From positions 38,068,001 to 38,132,000 of the forward strand of contig OX597817.1 of assembly GCA_951406725.2 (NCBI GenBank): DNA of 64,000 nt, written 5' to 3'. Source of the stretch: Octopus vulgaris. Taxonomy: Eukaryota. Below the pieces are notes generated by a model, which saw only the letters and a program-made list of their open reading frames with translations, was not told where the DNA came from and did no database searches. The translations under genes and the position numbers were made by a program. Positions 4,650 to 48,805 of the stretch are shown piece by piece. Numbering within the stretch: position 1 is the first letter of the stretch; the number at the start of each line of letters is the position of its first letter.

Positions 4650-4690
<41 letters not shown>

Positions 4691-5137
4691 GAGTGAGAGA
4701 GCAGTGCATGCCATCAAAGTGACACTGGGGTAATATATACAAAGCCCAGTATAACCATCATGACTACCCATCTGATAAGGGTACACTAAGCACATGCATC
4801 ACAAACATGTGTGCGTGACATGGGGATCTAATATCAAGATAAACAGCGCATGACCTTGCAGGTGAGGCTCAGTTAGAATTTTCATCTGGTCGAGTAACCT
4901 ATCCCGCTCAAAAGGTCCCTGAATAAGGGTTGTTTAAGGATGTTAAACGAAACACCCATGTTTCCAGAGGTGAATTATTCAAACCCCAAAGAATCCCTCT
5001 CAACACATGGCTATGATGCTCCCCCACTACTTCTGCTCGTGATCAGAGATGCACATATCGTCAGCCACTAAGGGACGTGTTCAAATGGTTAAGGTCAATC
5101 AACTGACAAGCAAATCTGTGGTATTGAGCAGAATATT
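4691..5137 (-). mobile_element. (AAT)n-embedded non-coding interspersed element, truncated copy 1
   Basis: Highly similar to 5150-5596 and 41427-41972; flanked by (ATT)n; strand inferred from a putative (AAT)n tail. Confidence 0.8.
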
Positions 5138-5149
5138 ATTATTATTATT

Positions 5150-5592
5150 GAGTGAGAGAGCAGTTCATGCCATCAAAGTGACACTGGGGTAAAATATACG
5201 AAGCCCAATATACCCATCATGACTACCCGTCTGATAAGGGCACACCAGGCACATGCATCACAACCATATGTGCGCGACATGGTGATCTCATATCAAGATA
5301 AACAGCACATGACCTTGCAGGTGGGGCCCAGTTAGAATTTTCTTCAGGTTGAGTAGCCCATCCCGCTCAAGCGGTCCCTGAATAAGGGTTGTTTAAGGAT
5401 GTTGAAAGAACCACCCATGTTTCCAGAGGTGAATTATTCAAACCCCAAAGAATCCCTCTCAACACATGGCTATGATGCTCCCCCACTACTTCTGCTCGTG
5501 ATCAGAGATGCACATATCGTCAGCCACTAAGGGACGTGCTCAAATGGTTATGGTCAAACAAGTGACAAGCAAATCTGTGGTATTGAGCAGAA

Positions 5593-5596
<4 letters not shown>
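5150..5596 (-). mobile_element. (AAT)n-embedded non-coding interspersed element, truncated copy 2
   Basis: In tandem with copy 1; same truncation point (..gagcagaatatt). Confidence 0.8.
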
Positions 5597-5642
<46 letters not shown>

Positions 5643-17684: not shown

Positions 17685-18225
17685 ACGAAATGCTTATCGG
17701 TATTTCGTCTGCTGTTACGTTCTGAGTTCAAATTCTGCCGAGGTCGACTTTGCCTTTCATCCATTCGGGGTCGATAAACTAAGAACCAGTAACGCACTGG
17801 GGTCGATATAATCGACTTAATCCGTTTGTCTGTCTTTGTTTGTCCACTCTGTGTTTAGCCCCTTGTGGGTAGTAAAGAAATAGGTATTTCGTCTGCTGTT
17901 ATTTCTGAGTTCAAATTCCGCCGAGGTCGACTTACCTCTCATCCTTTCGGAGGTCGATAAATTAAGTACCAGTACGCACTGGAGTCGATGTAATCGACTT
18001 AATCCTTTGTCTGTCCTTGTTTGTTCCCTTTGTGTTTAGCCCCTTGTGGGTAGTAAAGAAATAGGTATTTCGTCTGCTGTTATGTTCTGAGTTCAAATTC
18101 CGCCGAGGTCGACTTTGCCTTTCATCCTCTCGGGGTCGATAAATTAAGTACCAGCTGCGTACTGGGGTCGATCTAATCGACTGGCCCCCTTTCCCAAACA
18201 TTCGGGCCTTGTGCCGAGAGTAGAA
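17685..18225 (+). mobile_element. tandem array of three headless SINE A modules (about 181-bp period)
   Basis: ggtatttcgtctgctgtta restarts at about 17699, 17883 and 18064. Confidence 0.9.
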
Positions 18226-25278: not shown

Positions 25279-25512
25279 AAGGCGGCGAGCTGGCAGAAAC
25301 GTTAGCACGCCGGGCGAAATGCGTAGCCGTATTTCGTCTGCCATTACGTTCTGAGTTCAAATTCCGCTGAGGTCGACTTTGCCTTTCATCCTTTCGGGGT
25401 CGATTAAATAAGTACCAGTTACGCACTGGGGTCGATGTAATCGACTTAATCCGTTTGTCTGTCCTTGTTTGTTCCTTCTATGTTTAGCTCCTTGTGGCTA
25501 GTAAAGAAATAA
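25279..25512 (+). mobile_element. SINE family A, full-length
   Basis: aaggcggcgagctggcagaaacgttagcacg...gtaaagaaata. Confidence 0.93.
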
Positions 25513-26189
25513 ATATTGTTAGTGTTCTCAAATATCAACGTAGCAAATCCACGCATAGCTTTTTGTTGGTCTTCGACGTTTCTCTTTCACGTTTCGTTGA
25601 CATGCGTTCGTCTCACGTTTGCTTCCGTGTTGCAAGCCATCGGAAGCAGTGCTTCCTGAGAAGTTCACTCCCGACTCGTAAAATGTTGTTCTCTTTGCCT
25701 TTGAGTATTTAATGCATTCATTTTCTCTGCTCTTGTTCAATGCTTACTTATTAAGTGCTTACCATACGCCACTCAAAGCGTGTGTTGATTAATGCCTAAC
25801 CTCTTTTCCCGTTGTTTCCTTTCTTCTAAAATAGAGCTTGACTATATTATTTCTTTGGAAACTACAAGATGATCTCAGGATTTTGCATATTTTGATATTA
25901 ATTGGCACGATTTCCTCCCTAATTTAGTCACATGTCTAAACTGTTGGTGCTATTTAAAGTATCGAGAAAGGGTTTTGTTGTAAGAGGAAATTACATTTGG
26001 TAAATACAATGCCGTTGTACATGACATTGGCAAAGTATTCATTCGTGTCTGGTATGGTCTTGTTTTAGCTAAATTCCGTCTGTGGTCTACACTTCTCCCT
26101 CATTTTGGATTATAGAATTTCTAACTACTACATCAATGCACCATCGTAACTTCTGATCTTCTAAATTAGTGAACTTAAATTCCACAGGT

Positions 26190-26945
26190 ACAAGACATAC
26201 AAGGGAGCTGTCGGCAAGGATCTCGGTCTACATTTACTGTAGATCTAAACGACAGGAAAAAAGACGACTGACATGGTCAGATAAATAAGAAAACTACTCG
26301 ATATAGACTTCAAACATTTACTGCAGTTTCGAGAAAGCAGCACCACAGGATGAGATTTCATATTTGGTACAAAATTTCAACATTTTAAAGAACAACACTC
26401 ACCGATATATTTAAAACAACCATAGAAGCCCACGTTGATACACCAAACATAGCAAGAAGCTATCTCGCAGTCATTTATAAAAATACTGAGAAATACAGGC
26501 CTAATTCTTAACGAAACATCATGTGTACGCTTTCTACAGTCTGCTTAAATCAGTCCATTCAAGACCATTGCACGGTAAATGATAGTAACCGATGAACAGG
26601 CAGATGGAATATGGGAGTATAGGGGGTTGTGCCAAGCAGTAATTAATAGAGCTGTACTGCCTGAAGTGAAACATATAGCCCTCAGAAACCTTATATCAGT
26701 ATGGCTTGATTACAGAAAAGTCGTTTAACTCTCTCTTGGCTGCTAGAATCATTGTATTTTACAAAAGTGCTCGCTACCCTAGTTGCAGCTATTCAAATGC
26801 TTACAAAGACTGGGTCAAACATCCTAGCCCCCGTAACTGAAAGAACAACCATACAATTGTCTCTGGTGGCATAGATATTTCGAAAGGAATATTCAAGGAG
26901 ACAGTCTGTCTGTTAGTTATTCTATTCACTTTATTATTAAAACTG
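26190..26945 (+). pseudogene. R4/Dong-like LINE RT remnant (partly duplicated at 28365-28885)
   Basis: DEQADG, NLISVWLDYRK and frameshifted KGI.QGDSLS motifs. Confidence 0.7.
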
Positions 26946-27448
26946 GTGCAATTTTTTTGTTGTTGCAAAAAAAGAAAAATAATTCGTCTGGAGAGGCAGA
27001 CTTGGTGTGTTCAACTGTCTCACTGTACAGGCTGCATGTCTGCATTTGCTGCTTTTTACAACAGCAAGATCAAAATAATTTATGTATTCACGATCTTAAG
27101 GTCTGCACTGGATGTGTGTGTGTGTGTGTGCGCGCGGCACTTCTGTGTGTGTCTGTATGTGTGTGTGTGTGTGTACGTATGTATTAGCAATAGAAGCAGC
27201 CTTTGTAATGAATATTAACTTGTACATCCAACTTAACATGGATGTGCTGTGCAAATATGCCATGAGCTGCAGGAATCGTCCTGAAAAATCATCTAGTATG
27301 GACGTTAAGTGCTAATAAAGCACAAATTACATCAGTAAGCGAAATTTTATTAACAAGGCGGACGGGCCTGTTTGTATCACGTGACTTCAGCGTAATTTGT
27401 GCCTCATCAACAAGAGGTAATCTACCACTGATTGCCAGACTGAAATTC

Positions 27449-27641
27449 CGTCAAACCGATGTATTTTAAAATGGATTAAACTGACAGCGATGTCGCAAAA
27501 AGCTGGTGGGTTATATATATAAATTAGACATCAGCAATGGAAGTAGCCTTTCCGTCGCTAATAGCTAATTTATAGACAACCCACCAGCTTTTTGCGACAT
27601 CTCTGATTGTTTAGGCAGTGTTAAACTATATCGGTTTGACG
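27449..27641. repeat. imperfect palindrome of about 190 bp (MITE-like hairpin); second copy at 29388-29580
   Basis: cgtcaaaccgat/atcggtttgacg and gatgtcgcaaaaagctggtgggtt/aacccaccagctttttgcgacatc. Confidence 0.85.
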
Positions 27642-27931
27642 AACCAAACATCTAACGTAAGACATATTCTGCTTCTATATATGATCACTAGGAAATTCTT
27701 TAGTAAGGATTTGACAACCTAGTCTCTTTAAAAAGGGTAGAAACAAAAACCTTGCGTATATTAAGAAATTAACTTTCTACCTCAACATCCCGTGAACAAT
27801 AAACAACTAAACCTTCAAAAGTTGCGACAAAATCTCTGAGGATCACGCATATGACATTGCCAAACCATGAAGACTAAGAGAGGAAATATTTCATCTTTGA
27901 CATCCTGCTGATGCTACATAAAGCTCAATTA

Positions 27932-27980
<49 letters not shown>

Positions 27981-27981
<1 letters not shown>

Positions 27982-28364
27982 TAGCAGTATCGCCCGGCGT
28001 TGCTCAGGTTTGTAAGGGAAATAACTATAAAGCATTTTTAGAGAGTTATAGCCAAAAAATAGCAAAAAAATGGAAAAAAAATGATGGTAAATTTTTTTGA
28101 GAGTTAAAAAAGGTAGAGTTGCGTCCCCTAGACGGTCTGTGGTTTGGGTTTCTAATTCTCGACCCCATGTCGAATTTATCGATTTTTTTCAGAACTGGGG
28201 GAACTTTTCAAAATTTTCGCTGCGTTAGTTTTGAATTATGACATTGGGCTATGTGTGTGTCAAGTTTCATCAGAATCGGTTGAAAGCCGTGGTCAGAGTG
28301 AGGGTACGAGAAAACAGATACACAGAAACACGCACAGACAAACTGCCGTTTATATAGAGAGAGA
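27981..28364 (-). mobile_element. non-autonomous Helitron, copy 1
   Basis: Minus strand A|TCTCTCTCTATATAAACGGCAG... ends cctgagcaacgccggg (hairpin) cgatactgCTAG|T. Confidence 0.88.
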
Positions 28365-29870
28365 TAGAAGCCCACGTTGATACACCAAACATAGCAAGAA
28401 GCTATCTCGCAGTCATTTATAAAAATACTGAGAAATACAGGCCTAATTCTTAACGAAACATCATGTGTACGCTTTCTACAGTCTGCTTAAATCAGTCCAT
28501 TCAAGACCATTGCACGGTAAATGATAGTAACCGATGAACAGGCAGATGGAATATGGGAGTATAGGGGGTTGTGCCAAGCAGTAATTAATAGAGCTGTACT
28601 GCCTGAAGTGAAACATATAGCCCTCAGAAACCTTATATCAGTATGGCTTGATTACAGAAAAGTCGTTTAACTCTCTCTTGGCTGCTAGAATCATTGTATT
28701 TTACAAAAGTGCTCGCTACCCTAGTTGCAGCTATTCAAATGCTTACAAAGACTGGGTCAAACATCCTAGCCCCCGTAACTGAAAGAACAACCATACAATT
28801 GTCTCTGGTGGCATAGATATTTCGAAAGGAATATTCAAGGAGACAGTCTGTCTGTTAGTTATTCTATTCACTTTATTATTAAAACTGGTGCAATTTTTTT
28901 GTTGTTGCAAAAAAAGAAAAATAATTCGTCTGGAGAGGCAGACTTGGTGTGTTCAACTGTCTCACTGTACAGGCTGCATGTCTGCATTTGCTGCTTTTAC
29001 AACAGCAAGATCAAAATAATTTATGTATTCACGATCTTAAGGTCTGCACTGGATGTGTGTGTGTGTGTGTGCGCGCGGCACTTCTGTGTGTGTCTGTATG
29101 TGTGTGTGTGTGTACGTATGTATTAGCAATAGAAGCAGCCTTTGTAATGAATATTAACTTGTACATCCAACTTAACATGGATGTGCTGTGCAAATATGCC
29201 ATGAGCTGCAGGAATCGTCCTGAAAAATCATCTAGTATGGACGTTAAGTGCTAATAAAGCACAAATTACATCAGTAAGCGAAATTTTATTAACAAGGCGG
29301 ACGGGCCTGTTTGTATCACGTGACTTCAGCGTAATTTGTGCCTCATCAACAAGAGGTAATCTACCACTGATTGCCAGACTGAAATTCCGTCAAACCGATG
29401 TATTTTAAAATGGATTAAACTGACAGCGATGTCGCAAAAAGCTGGTGGGTTATATATATAAATTAGACATCAGCAATGGAAGTAGCCTTTCCGTCGCTAA
29501 TAGCTAATTTATAGACAACCCACCAGCTTTTTGCGACATCTCTGATTGTTTAGGCAGTGTTAAACTATATCGGTTTGACGAACCAAACATCTAACGTAAG
29601 ACATATTCTGCTTCTATATATGATCACTAGGAAATTCTTTAGTAAGGATTTGACAACCTAGTCTCTTTAAAAAGGGTAGAAACAAAAACCTTGCGTATAT
29701 TAAGAAATTAACTTTCTACCTCAACATCCCGTGAACAATAAACAACTAAACCTTCAAAAGTTGCGACAAAATCTCTGAGGATCACGCATATGACATTGCC
29801 AAACCATGAAGACTAAGAGAGGAAATATTTCATCTTTGACATCCTGCTGATGCTACATAAAGCTCAATTA

Positions 29871-29925
<55 letters not shown>

Positions 29926-29926
<1 letters not shown>

Positions 29927-30308
29927 TAGCAGTATCGCCCGGCGTTGCTCAGGTTTGTAAGGGAAATAACTATAAAGCATTTTTAGAGAGTTATAGCCAA
30001 AAAATAGCAAAAAAATGGAAAAAAAATGATGGTAAATTTTTTTGAGAGTTAAAAAGGTAGAGTTGCGTCCCCTAGACGGTCTGTGGTTTGGGTTTCTAAT
30101 TCTCGACCCCATGTCGAATTTATCGATTTTTTTCAGAACTGGGGGAACTTTTCAAAATTTTCGCTGCGTTAGTTTTGAATTATGACATTGGGCTATGTGT
30201 GTGTCAAGTTTCATCAGAATCGGTTGAAAGCCGTGGTCAGAGTGAGGGTACGAGAAAACAGATACACAGAAACACGCACAGACAAACTGCCGTTTATATA
30301 GAGAGAGA
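29926..30308 (-). mobile_element. non-autonomous Helitron, copy 2 ((TA)n on both sides)
   Basis: Same TC...hairpin-CTAG termini, inserted at A|T. Confidence 0.88.
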
Positions 30309-32370
30309 TATATATATGGGAATATTACTCTCATACAAACATCAAAGTGTGAATTTGACAGATTTGTAATGATTTAATCACTAATACGCTACAACACCTA
30401 ACGTAGGTATCGATAAAAGAACATCTATATGTTTGCTCGACTTAAAAATAACAACCAAATTTCCTTCAAATCACAAGCTTCAGTCTTAGAAAAACAAAGG
30501 TACATAGAGAAATGTAGTTCTAAATACCTTGTATCTAAATAAAAGACAAAATGGTTACACCTGGAATGTTTTTGATCATGGGTCTGCTCAGTGATACTTA
30601 ACCTGGCCTAAGCTACAACAACAATAACAACGACAGTATCAATCTGAGAGATACGCTGTTTCTATCACCGTTGAGCTAGTTAGTTTATTACATGCAAGTA
30701 TGGTCGAGTGTTTATGAAATTCGCTTTGCCAATTATGAAATTCTGGATTTGATATCATTGCGTGTTATCTTCGGTAAGTTTCTTTTATCATCGCCTCAAA
30801 TGGAATCAAACCATAGGAGTGAAAATGGAAAGACGGAATTTGCTCCATCAAGCCTAAACAACCTCTGAGACCGTGTACATGTTTTAGCCACAACACATGC
30901 TCGAGTAACTAACTGCATTAAAGTTAAACAATCTAAGGGAGCATGTACGTGTTATGCCTACTGTCTTCTCTCGATTGGCTAACTGTATCATGGGGAAACG
31001 GTCTTTATGGACACGCACATATCGTGGTAACTACTCATTTTTGAGCGGCTAACTGCGTCAAGGTCAAGGAATCTGGGAGAACCTGTACGCTTCATGGGCT
31101 CTGCCCCTTCTTGGTTGATTGACTATATCAAAGTCAAAACAGTCTGTAAGAATCTGGATGTGTCATGACCATTGCCTTTTCTCGATTGGTTAACAAATAA
31201 AAAAGAAATAAATAAATAAACATCTCAATCTTCTTACATCTACGTACTGGTGACTTAGAGAGTCATTTGATACATCAAGTGAATGTTTGATCAAGATGTA
31301 CATTCCACGAATGAATGCTGTCAAAGGTAATAGATTAACAACCGCAGTCATCACCACCACCACTACCACAGTAACAATAATAACGTCTTGTCTGCTACAA
31401 GGACTACGAATGAAAGAAACATTATAAGGAAAAATGATAAAACATTGGGGTTTATGCAGAATCAATTATGCAAAGAAAAAACAAAAGTGAAGAAAAGCAA
31501 GAGGCACGACAAACAAAAGTATACATAAGTCACGAAATGAGATGTCCCAATCATAGAGGGAGAAGCCATCTAAGGCCAAGCAATGGACACTGCAGATTAA
31601 AAAATTGATCTATCAAAGGCAAGTGCCCTCTCCCATTGTGTTATTCGGCCCACTGTCCATCCTCGCTTCTTTTATCCACCTCCTCCCGCCCCTTCTCCTT
31701 ATGGAATTCAAACAAATTGATGAGGTTTTGACCAAAGAGGAAACTGTCTTTCTTCAGACCCTCGATCTTGTCCACCATGCAATCGTTTTCCCTAAAGCCA
31801 CTGGATAGGAAAAAAAGACATTTTGCAATTTCCGATCAAAGACAGACGACAGGGAAATCCTCGAAATGGATTCGAGTTTGGCAACCGGCATTTTTATGCC
31901 AGTAGAACTTGTCCCGAACAGATAATACCGATTCTCTGTAAAACCAACTCACAACCAGATCAAGGACTTCAAGAGATTGTCCAATATCCCCTAACTGAAA
32001 GCAGTGGTGTAGTGTGGTGTGTGCGGATTGGAAAGGACCGCCACCTTGTATACATGTGTTTGCTGTAGTCAAAGGTACGTTGCAGTGAAGGAAGACGACA
32101 ACCAATTTAGTTACTACACAGAGCGGCCAAAACACGCGTTACGTCCACCAGAAGAGAGTGCTCAAACGACGTTGTCGTCTTTCATAACCATTCCGAGTTA
32201 TTCGTCGCTCAGTTACAACACTGATTCTCTTTTCAGTTGATCTCACTGCCCAGCTAACAGAGTGCTGTGAGCACCAGGCAACATTTCAGATATCAAACGC
32301 TCTGCCTTAGTCAGCGCATGTCGTTTTGCTTAGAAATTTAAGACTAAGACACAAATACTTCCGAATAAAA

Positions 32371-48366: not shown

Positions 48367-48513
48367 GGTTAAGTAATTGAGATTCTAGTGAATTCTAAAG
48401 AATTCACATGAATATGGTCCTTAACTAGGATGCACCGGAAATCTATATGGTGTTAACCATACGACAAGTGGGGTGATTACAAATAGGAAAAAAGCAACAA
48501 GAATGGATTAAAA

Positions 48514-48601
48514 TCTCGGTACGATCGTTTCGTACGAGGACATCTTTAATAAGCTACAAAAAATGCAGTGAATACAGATGGCTCGTACTCGTCAGCCGAA
48601 A
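48514..48601 (-). ncRNA. type I hammerhead ribozyme with extended stem II (left arm)
   Basis: Exact reverse complement of the 48619-48706 motif. Confidence 0.88.
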
Positions 48602-48618
48602 AATGTTCTCTGATGTTT

Positions 48619-48706
48619 TTTCGGCTGACGAGTACGAGCCATCTGTATTCACTGCATTTTTTGTAGCTTATTAAAGATGTCCTCGTACGAAACGATCGTA
48701 CCGAGA
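48619..48706 (+). ncRNA. type I hammerhead ribozyme with extended stem II (right arm)
   Basis: tttcgg-CTGACGA-gtacgag[~43-nt hairpin]ctcgtac-GAAA-cgatcg-TA-ccgaga; all core residues intact, GUA site. Confidence 0.9.
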
Positions 48707-48730
48707 TTTTAATCCATTCTTGTTGCTTTT

Positions 48731-48805
<75 letters not shown>

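What the first reader, a model, noticed from the sequence alone, without database searches (positions are those of the whole stretch)
26423..30308. 1.94-kb tandem duplication with the exact junction expected from Helitron rolling-circle read-through
Seen: each unit is about 1.56 kb of flank plus a 384-bp Helitron (minus). Copy 2 has (TA)n on both sides and looks like the original site. Copy 1's 5' TC is fused to ..ggcttctA, which at the array edge continues A|Tgg, a canonical A|T target 1.56 kb downstream of the element's 3' end. The 3' hairpin has a weak T-G position (cctg..cggg). Inference: the donor 5' end was joined to a downstream cis target, the terminator was bypassed, and element plus flank were duplicated. 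This would be a very recent snapshot of Helitron-driven capture of host DNA.
Basis: partly seen in the sequence, partly recalled or inferred. Interest (0 to 1): 0.75.

Follow-up and report, generated by a model that had tools for sequence, protein, structure and literature searches.

The report
Helitron-made tandem duplication of flanking DNA
A small rolling-circle transposon (Helitron) and 1.56 kb of neighbouring DNA with no recognisable gene are present twice in a row, joined exactly at the transposon's first base; other copies of the family carry shorter duplications that start at the same point, so the transposon's own enzyme likely made this one by copying past its stop signal and rejoining on the spot.

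Summary
The duplication is in the window: two 1.94-kb units with no substitution, joined exactly at the 5' TC of a 384-bp non-autonomous Helitron. One run's contig holds the junction, but it is short and may come from the assembled animal. The family is young (at least 3,199 5' ends) and has intact 6-kb RepHel partners. Both copies share a rare base, so the second is local. The family often makes 5'-anchored duplications: 12 of 14 short ones start at the TC (0.8 expected), and 47 of 58 head-to-tail junctions lack the last G and read CTA|TC, as here, though most belong to one mobile dimer lineage. Likely mechanism: the enzyme-bound 5' end was rejoined to an A on newly made DNA after terminator bypass. 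Corrections: the T-G hairpin is the family norm, the distal site is a mediocre target, the flank was not found elsewhere, and no second case turned up (0 of 45; 0 of 22). Tandem Helitrons and end bypass are known; base-precise in-place duplication of host flank was not found in 9 paper searches. The scan noted looser analogues on other DNA.

The parts
26423..28364 (-). Unit 1 (downstream unit in element orientation): element copy 1 plus 1,558 bp flank
28365..30308 (-). Unit 2 (upstream unit in element orientation): element copy 2 plus flank
27981..28364 (-). Non-autonomous Helitron copy 1, 384 bp, TC...CTAG; its 5' TC forms the new junction
29926..30308 (-). Non-autonomous Helitron copy 2, 383 bp, between TA repeats; keeps the original 5' flank
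28364..28366 (-). Junction ...GGCTTCTA|TCTCTCTC..., 3-letter ambiguity TAT; held by a 56-letter contig of run X4
26422..26424 (-). Distal breakpoint in its unjoined state, ...CTTCTA|TGGTTG; top 16% of window AT sites by target profile
27993..28008 (-). 3' hairpin of copy 1, CCTGAGCAACGCCGGG (T-G wobble is family-wide)
29938..29953 (-). 3' hairpin of copy 2, the terminator that was likely bypassed
   Evidence: bypass inferred
28319..28319 (-). Rare A at element position 46 in copy 1 (copy 2: 30263); 5 exact matches in the genome, 2 of them here
27934..27980 (.). (TA)n at the 3' end of copy 1 (copy 2: 29873-29925); inside the unit, not at a breakpoint
26423..27933 (.). Duplicated host flank: old repeat remnants, TG microsatellite, an inverted-repeat piece; no Pfam hit over cut-off, no Rfam hit; six CTAG on the transposed strand
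27981..30308 (-). Resulting element-flank-element composite (2.3 kb) with a 5' TC and an intact 3' CTAG; predicted to be movable as one Helitron
   Evidence: structure; mobility inferred from the composite

Best explanation
This is a recent tandem duplication that starts exactly at the 5' TC of a young non-autonomous Helitron, and it was likely made in place by the RepHel enzyme of its autonomous partner. Shown: the geometry, the local origin of the second copy, an intact partner, and many other family duplications anchored at the TC. Inferred steps: (1) RepHel nicks at a|TC of copy 2 and stays bound to the T (Helraiser model, PMC4778049). (2) Host synthesis from the flank's 3'-OH displaces the element strand and runs past the hairpin/CTAG and six further CTAG for 1.56 kb. 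(3) The bound 5' end is transferred, as in a target join, onto a 3'-OH ending in A on the newly made strand (or the sister chromatid) at 26423; the old strand is never cut at its 3' end. (4) The one-strand loop is fixed at the next replication. The same step stopped earlier would give the family's 26-310-bp head duplications and the dimers that lack the final G.
For: Junction exactly at TC after an A, in the orientation that rolling-circle synthesis needs. A precedes 164 of 170 full-length copies. Partner: 9 of 14 RepHel loci fetched share the first 241-249 bp at 94-96% and the 3' end; Pfam Helitron_like_N + PIF1 in 2 of 2 ORFs scanned. Local origin: A46 is in both copies and in only 3 other exact matches genome-wide, which differ from the window copy at 10, 11 and 3 positions. 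Family series: of 23 matches with two 5' motifs within 300 bp, 13 (12 events) have a 5' piece abutting an exact TC start, 3 (2 events) are duplications not anchored there, 3 are ambiguous and 4 are not duplications (sorted by eye). About 0.8 of 14 are expected under uniform breakpoints. A precedes the join in 9 of 12. L244 and L248 match their neighbour letter for letter and share variants seen in no other locus held. Direct head-to-tail junctions: 47 CTA|TC vs 11 CTAG|TC, plus 7 with spacers, of 65; CTA|TC arose in at least 4 subfamily backgrounds. Read-through in this family: an element-103 bp-element composite stands at 4 places on 3 contigs. Rough chance of a host duplication hitting a 5' end: 0.03-0.05 per genome (from 2 background cases in 680 kb).
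Against: Only one flank-carrying case: 0 of 45 other (A/C/T)CTA|TC 5' ends repeat their upstream flank within 9.8 kb (positive control found), and 0 of 22 close pairs are clean cases. 29 of 40 G-less dimer loci share an 11-bp deletion in the last copy, so they are one mobile lineage, not 40 events. Some head duplications join copies of different subfamilies (L261, L264, L104), so insertion at a resident 5' end also gives this pattern; L242/L250 and L261/L264 may each be one lineage. The distal site is a middling target: 16% of 6,228 window AT sites score as well, and only 17% of true sites score as low. Host-type kb-scale tandem duplications exist here without the element at their edges (L158, L270). 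Sequence alone cannot tell a new-strand join from circle re-entry. Junction support is one short contig; X1 and X2 contigs lack it.
Confidence: 0.55

Rival explanations
1. Read-through circle that re-entered the donor site: RepHel bypassed the terminator, closed a 1.94-kb element+flank circle at CTA|TC, and the circle went back in by homologous recombination or by insertion at the donor's own a|TC.
For: Gives the same sequence. Helraiser makes circles, about half with aberrant junctions (PMC5876387 passages), and carries 1.6 kb of flank in about 11.7% of events (PMC4778049 passages). Plant arrays with many 5' ends are explained by circle replication (Xiong 2016 as told in PMC12628747).
Against: Helraiser showed no local hopping in 701 re-insertions. 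26- and 60-bp members of the family series are implausibly small for circles (inference). The flank is not found elsewhere.
Confidence: 0.2
2. Host repair or replication slip (microhomology-mediated tandem duplication) that happened to start at the TA/TC-rich 5' end of the element.
For: 3-letter microhomology TAT. Unanchored kb-scale tandem duplications occur at about 2 per 680 kb. The distal site is an indifferent target. A RepHel nick could also seed host repair; an unchecked scan note (e1-10333443) reads another element's end duplications that way.
Against: Two of the three shared letters are forced by A|T. The long (TA)n tracts lie inside the unit, not at the breakpoints. 0.03-0.05 coincidences are expected per genome with uniform breakpoints. 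It does not explain 12 of 14 anchoring or the loss of exactly one G.
Confidence: 0.13
3. Two steps: the element hopped locally into the A|T 1.56 kb downstream, then unequal crossover inside the two copies, with a chromatid lacking the new copy, duplicated the flank. No read-through is needed.
For: Gives the same sequence and explains the canonical A|T directly. An unchecked scan note (e1-9520962) invokes unequal crossover between Helitron copies elsewhere in this genome.
Against: Needs two rare events. The shared A46 rules out almost every outside donor unless the crossover fell in the first 46 bp. The flanks are identical, whereas run X2's other allele differs at 14 of 176 letters. No local hopping for Helraiser.
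Confidence: 0.07
4. Assembly artefact: one copy written twice.
For: Zero substitutions, differences only in runs. X1 and X2 contigs cross the left edge without a branch. In X2 the two left-edge allele contigs sum to 24.5, as much as inside the unit.
Against: The junction stands in a contig of run X4 beside the normal edge. Contig depth is 102.8 inside vs 63.6 outside in X1. In X2 the window-like allele is about twice the other allele inside the unit (17.3:9.2; 18.3:8.6). The tool warns that contig depth is no copy number. An artefact has no reason to start at TC.
Confidence: 0.05

Closest known systems
Helraiser/Helibat1 end bypass and 3' transduction (Grabundzija 2016, PMC4778049; passages read)
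   Same: TC start, hairpin, CTAG end, A|T targets with an AT-rich 3' side; terminator can be bypassed by 1.6 kb.
   Different: There the flank is carried to a new site with a new 3' end, circle junctions are CTAG|TC, and local hopping is absent. Here the flank is doubled at the donor site and the join reads CTA|TC.
Tandem Helitron arrays with many 5' ends and one 3' end in plants (Xiong 2016; not held; seen only as summarised in PMC12628747 and PMC5148889); bat and silkworm arrays (PMC4067079 passages)
   Same: Head-to-tail repeats restarting at the 5' end, ascribed to rolling-circle replication or a bypassed terminator; the short head duplications here look alike.
   Different: Those repeat element sequence and are thought to insert as concatemers at new sites. 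This unit includes unique host flank that is still at its source.
Fusarium FoHeli elements with multiple 5' termini (PMC5148889 passages)
   Same: First 31-85 bases repeated before a full element.
   Different: Explained there by self-insertion plus chimeric excision; non-canonical Helitrons; no host flank.
ToxB-HLE tandem amplification in Pyrenophora (bioRxiv 10.1101/2025.11.13.688278; 12 passages read)
   Same: Host DNA tandemly duplicated in place, with a Helitron-like repeat at the junction.
   Different: There the repeat supplies a 3' end, the 5' end is a putative motif in host DNA, no RepHel lies within the unit, and an unequal crossover is added. Here the junction is the 5' TC of a canonical element with an intact partner, and the captured DNA lies 3' of it.
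TE dimers by double insertion (McGurk and Barbash 2018, PMC5932611 passages)
   Same: Tandem dimers arise during bursts of activity.
   Different: Needs target-site duplications at the junction; Helitrons make none, and these junctions lose one base.

Membership tests
Canonical non-autonomous Helitron | 5' TC and 3' CTRR termini | tested here: met
   Both window copies, and the CTAG end in all 30 loci; in 1 of them the TC is eroded into a TA run
Canonical non-autonomous Helitron | GC-rich hairpin about 11-12 bases before the 3' end | tested here: met
   16-letter palindrome ends 12 letters before the end; the partner's reads CCCGGGCAACGCCGGG. The young form is weak: not formed in the predicted fold (-3.3, z -0.03) vs formed in an older copy (-5.8, z -1.48)
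Canonical non-autonomous Helitron | Insertion between A and T, no target-site duplication | tested here: met
   A precedes 164 of 170 full-length copies; T follows all 129 that end in CTAG; empty TA site in the sister unit of L158
Canonical non-autonomous Helitron | Autonomous RepHel partner sharing the ends | tested here: met
   9 of 14 fetched RepHel loci share 5' 241-249 bp (94-96%) and the 3' end; longest ORFs 1,081-1,744 aa; Helitron_like_N + PIF1
Canonical non-autonomous Helitron | Transposition shown biochemically | not testable with these tools
   Needs a cell or in vitro assay
End-bypass (3' transduction) capture | DNA 3' of the terminator copied together with the element | tested here: met
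   1,558 bp of 3' flank duplicated with the element
End-bypass (3' transduction) capture | Captured flank present at a new genomic site | tested here: not met
   Distal 800 bp has only the two local copies at 100% among 40 scored; the rest are 65-85% old repeats. The proximal flank was not searched
End-bypass (3' transduction) capture | Damaged terminator in the donor copy | tested here: not met
   Hairpin and CTAG equal the family majority
Rolling-circle tandem arrays (many 5' ends) | Repeat units restart exactly at the 5' terminus | tested here: met
   This junction; 12 of 14 short duplications; 58 direct junctions
Rolling-circle tandem arrays (many 5' ends) | Array inserted as a concatemer away from its source | tested here: not met
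   The unit runs on into its own genomic flank at 26422; the family's G-less dimer lineage does move as a unit
Microhomology-mediated host tandem duplication | Short microhomology at the junction | tested here: inconclusive
   3 letters, 2 forced by A|T
Unequal crossover between two repeat copies | Repeat copy at both outer ends of the array | tested here: not met
   No element at 26422; the variant with a partner chromatid lacking the new copy remains open

The most novel reading that the evidence does not exclude
Helitron RepHel has a donor-site reaction besides transposition: the bound 5' end is rejoined to an A on the strand being copied, duplicating everything copied so far (26 bp to 1.9 kb in this family; one base short of the end in the G-less dimers). 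When copying has passed the terminator, one step puts host DNA between a 5' end and an intact 3' end, giving a ready-made, properly terminated capture element. This would explain how captured fragments end up inside Helitrons with unchanged ends, and would make active Helitrons local makers of tandem duplications.
Probability: 0.35. Interest if true: 0.75.

Novelty: new variant of a known kind. Interest (0 to 1): 0.52.

Why it matters
How Helitrons get host DNA inside their ends is unsettled: end bypass explains new 3' ends but not internal captures (PMC6544945 passages). This locus shows a likely route at base resolution: duplicate element plus flank in place, and the flank lands between a 5' TC and a normal CTAG. 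The family offers many young junctions and intact transposase genes, so the idea can be tested by genome-wide counting and in a Helraiser-type assay. The locus itself carries no recognisable gene and is a single case, so its value is mechanistic.

Tried and rejected
Raw-read runs X21-X23 laid only 7, 24 and 3 reads: uninformative. X5 (organism B) covers 27372-27930 and stops at the TA tract, so the empty site was not seen. 'Private weak hairpin': rejected. 'CTA is a cryptic terminator that marks such junctions': CTA precedes only 1 of 123 other 5' flanks and matches the dimer join, but six CTAG were passed and 0 of 45 other CTA-preceded ends are flank duplications: not supported. '42 independent G-less dimers': rejected, mostly one lineage. 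L044/L158 looked like a second case but is an older duplication with the element in one unit only. L028, L087, L090, L093, L063, L019 flank repeats: no second element-flank unit. L221/L270: triplication without the element. L076/L077 four-copy array: spacer is TA-rich and resembles the upstream flank, ambiguous. A genome-wide search for pairs more than 300 bp apart could not be run, so long units were sampled only among CTA-preceded ends, the first 100 listed 5' ends on C1 (two dimers, one pair 8.7 kb apart whose copies differ in structure; flanks not cross-compared) and 1.5-kb flanks of loci held. Coding or RNA content: 7 ORFs without a Pfam hit over cut-off, no Rfam hit. Xiong 2016 and Dias 2016 (recalled titles) were not held. 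No supplements were read; Supplementary Fig. 4 of PMC4778049 (abutting bat Helitrons) may hold similar junctions.
Full report
OBSERVATION. The window lies in a 2.8-Gb, 227-contig eukaryotic assembly; earlier scan notes call it octopus (unchecked). 26422-28366 and 28364-30310 align over 1,941 columns with no substitution and four length differences in runs. Read on the minus strand the order is: 5' flank, element, 1,558-bp flank, element, the same flank, exit. The junction is ...GGCTTCTA|TCTCTCTC...; the exit reads ...GGCTTCTA|TGGTTG; the original 5' end reads ...CATATATATA|TCTCTCTC.

IS IT REAL? Run X4 holds a 56-letter contig (depth 4.4) with 26 element letters joined to 26422-26451, beside the ordinary left-edge contig, so its graph branches exactly at the breakpoint. 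The contig is shorter than the tool's 31-letter bridge rule, and X4 may be the assembled animal. X1 and X2 contigs run over the edge without showing the junction; contigs drop variants. Depth hints at extra copy: 102.8 inside vs 63.6 outside in X1; window-like allele about twice the other allele inside the unit in X2. Against: X2's two left-edge allele contigs sum to 24.5, as much as inside, and the tool warns that contig depth is no copy number. Three raw-read runs laid 3-24 reads and say nothing. I put artefact at about 5%.

THE ELEMENT. It is a canonical non-autonomous Helitron: TC start, hairpin, CTAG end, A before 164 of 170 full-length copies, T after all 129 CTAG ends, at least 3,199 exact 5' ends. 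Of 14 RepHel loci fetched from 150 scored matches, 9 share the first 241-249 bp at 94-96% and the 3' end; they are about 6 kb, with ORFs up to 1,744 aa carrying Helitron_like_N and PIF1 (2 of 2 scanned). The hairpin's T-G is in 20 of 27 unselected copies; it weakens the predicted fold but is not special to this copy. Targets outside TA repeats have TAA at +8 or +9 in 49 of 72 cases; the distal site has it at +10, scores in the top 16% of window AT sites, at the 17th percentile of true sites, and ranks 13 of 132 in the flank: allowed, not favoured.

LOCAL ORIGIN. Both copies carry A at position 46, where 164 of 170 copies have G. Genome-wide the variant has 5 exact matches, two of them here; the other three differ from the window copy at 10, 11 and 3 positions. 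The junction copy therefore comes from the resident copy.

THE FAMILY DOES THIS OFTEN AT SHORT RANGE. (a) Of 65 places where a 3' hairpin is followed within 40 bp by a 5' end, 47 read CTA|TC (final G lost), 11 CTAG|TC and 7 have spacers. All 40 loci of the 42 exact G-less junctions were examined: 29 share an 11-bp deletion in the last copy, so most are one dimer lineage that moves as a unit, but the junction occurs in at least four subfamily backgrounds. (b) Of 23 matches with two 5' motifs within 300 bp, sorted by eye: 13 matches (12 events; heads of 26-310 bp) have a 5' piece abutting an exact TC start, 3 (2 events) are duplications not anchored there, 3 are ambiguous and 4 are not duplications. 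Uniform breakpoints would give 0.8 of 14. A precedes the join in 9 of 12. L244 and L248 are letter-perfect local copies sharing variants seen in no other locus held; L261 and L264 join different subfamilies, so insertion at a resident 5' end also contributes, and two pairs may share ancestry. (c) An element-103 bp-element composite stands at 4 places on 3 contigs, with different outer flanks in the 3 compared: read-through of an intact terminator with transport of host DNA occurs in this family.

RESULTS AGAINST. No second long flank-carrying case: 0 of 45 other CTA-preceded 5' ends within 9.8 kb and 0 clean cases among 22 pairs within 300 bp; pairs further apart could not be searched genome-wide. 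Host-type kb-scale duplications without the element at their edges occur (L158, L270), about 2 in 680 kb; with uniform breakpoints that gives 0.03-0.05 chance hits on a 5' end per genome, more if TA/TC tracts are fragile. The distal 800 bp of flank are not found elsewhere at high identity; 7 ORFs have no Pfam hit over cut-off and Rfam finds nothing.

MECHANISM. From the Helraiser model (PMC4778049, PMC5876387; passages): nick at a|TC, enzyme bound to the T, synthesis from the flank's 3'-OH. Inference: a join of that T to a downstream A on the same displaced strand closes a circle and leaves no duplication. A join to an A-ending 3'-OH on the new strand or sister chromatid gives, in one step, new copy followed by old uncut copy, which is the pattern at every length seen: the last copy is complete with its own 3' flank, the first stops at a variable point, usually an A. 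It also accounts for loss of exactly the final G. I give this route 0.55, circle re-entry 0.20 (RepHel-made in all about 0.75-0.8), host repair 0.13, hop plus unequal crossover 0.07, artefact 0.05. The routes give the same sequence, so only population reads or an assay can separate them.

COMPARISON AND NOVELTY. End bypass, circles, tandem arrays and multiple 5' ends are in print, and a Helitron-like element was proposed for tandem amplification of a fungal gene. Nine answered full-text searches (a tenth was on octopus repeats) showed no report of base-precise donor-site duplication of 3' host flank or of G-less dimers. I saw listings and selected passages only, no whole paper and no supplement, and two key papers were not held. 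The element is a member of the canonical Helitrons; the event works like end bypass but fails its test of a new site. Verdict: new variant of a known kind, interest 0.52; the single case and gene-free flank hold it down, the family series and testability raise it.

Noticed in passing
40 loci of G000 (L088-L125, L020, L025): Head-to-tail dimers and two trimers lacking the final G of the upstream copy; 29 share an 11-bp deletion in the last copy and so transpose as one 757-bp unit.
   Followed up: yes
L154-L157 (C7, C7, C20, C21): Element-103 bp host DNA-element composite at four places; the two elements belong to different subfamilies.
   Followed up: partly
72 non-repeat 3' flanks across loci: Target preference beyond A|T: TAA at +8 or +9 in 49 of 72, resembling the element's own AT-rich 5' end.
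   Followed up: partly
L140-L142, L145-L147, L150-L152: Autonomous 6-kb Helitron family with long open RepHel frames (up to 1,744 aa, STPR repeats at the N end); possibly still active.
   Followed up: partly
L242-L264: 5' head duplications recur at element positions about 140, 170-180 and 310, suggesting preferred stop points.
   Followed up: partly
L158 (C1:5782500-5792499): Older tandem duplication with the element in one unit's TA tract and the empty site in the other.
   Followed up: yes
L270/L221 (C13:21.759-21.767 Mb): Near-identical 2.6-kb triplication without this element at its edges.
   Followed up: partly
L076/L077 (C12:88.728 Mb): Four element copies separated by 86-88-bp TA-rich spacers.
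   Followed up: partly
G000 C29:27.64-27.83 Mb: Cluster of at least eight RepHel matches on one strand.
   Followed up: no
window 4675-5608; 17699-18182; 48483-48736: 459-bp tandem pair between ATT tracts, 182-bp tandem of a dispersed repeat, and a 255-bp near-perfect palindrome.
   Followed up: no
window 27480-27630 (and copy in unit 2): Inverted-repeat piece inside the duplicated flank, matched by many other contigs; likely an old small transposon.
   Followed up: no
runs X21-X23 on window 25400-31400: Runs with the same species label laid almost no reads even on the thousand-copy element; unexplained (filtering or label).
   Followed up: no
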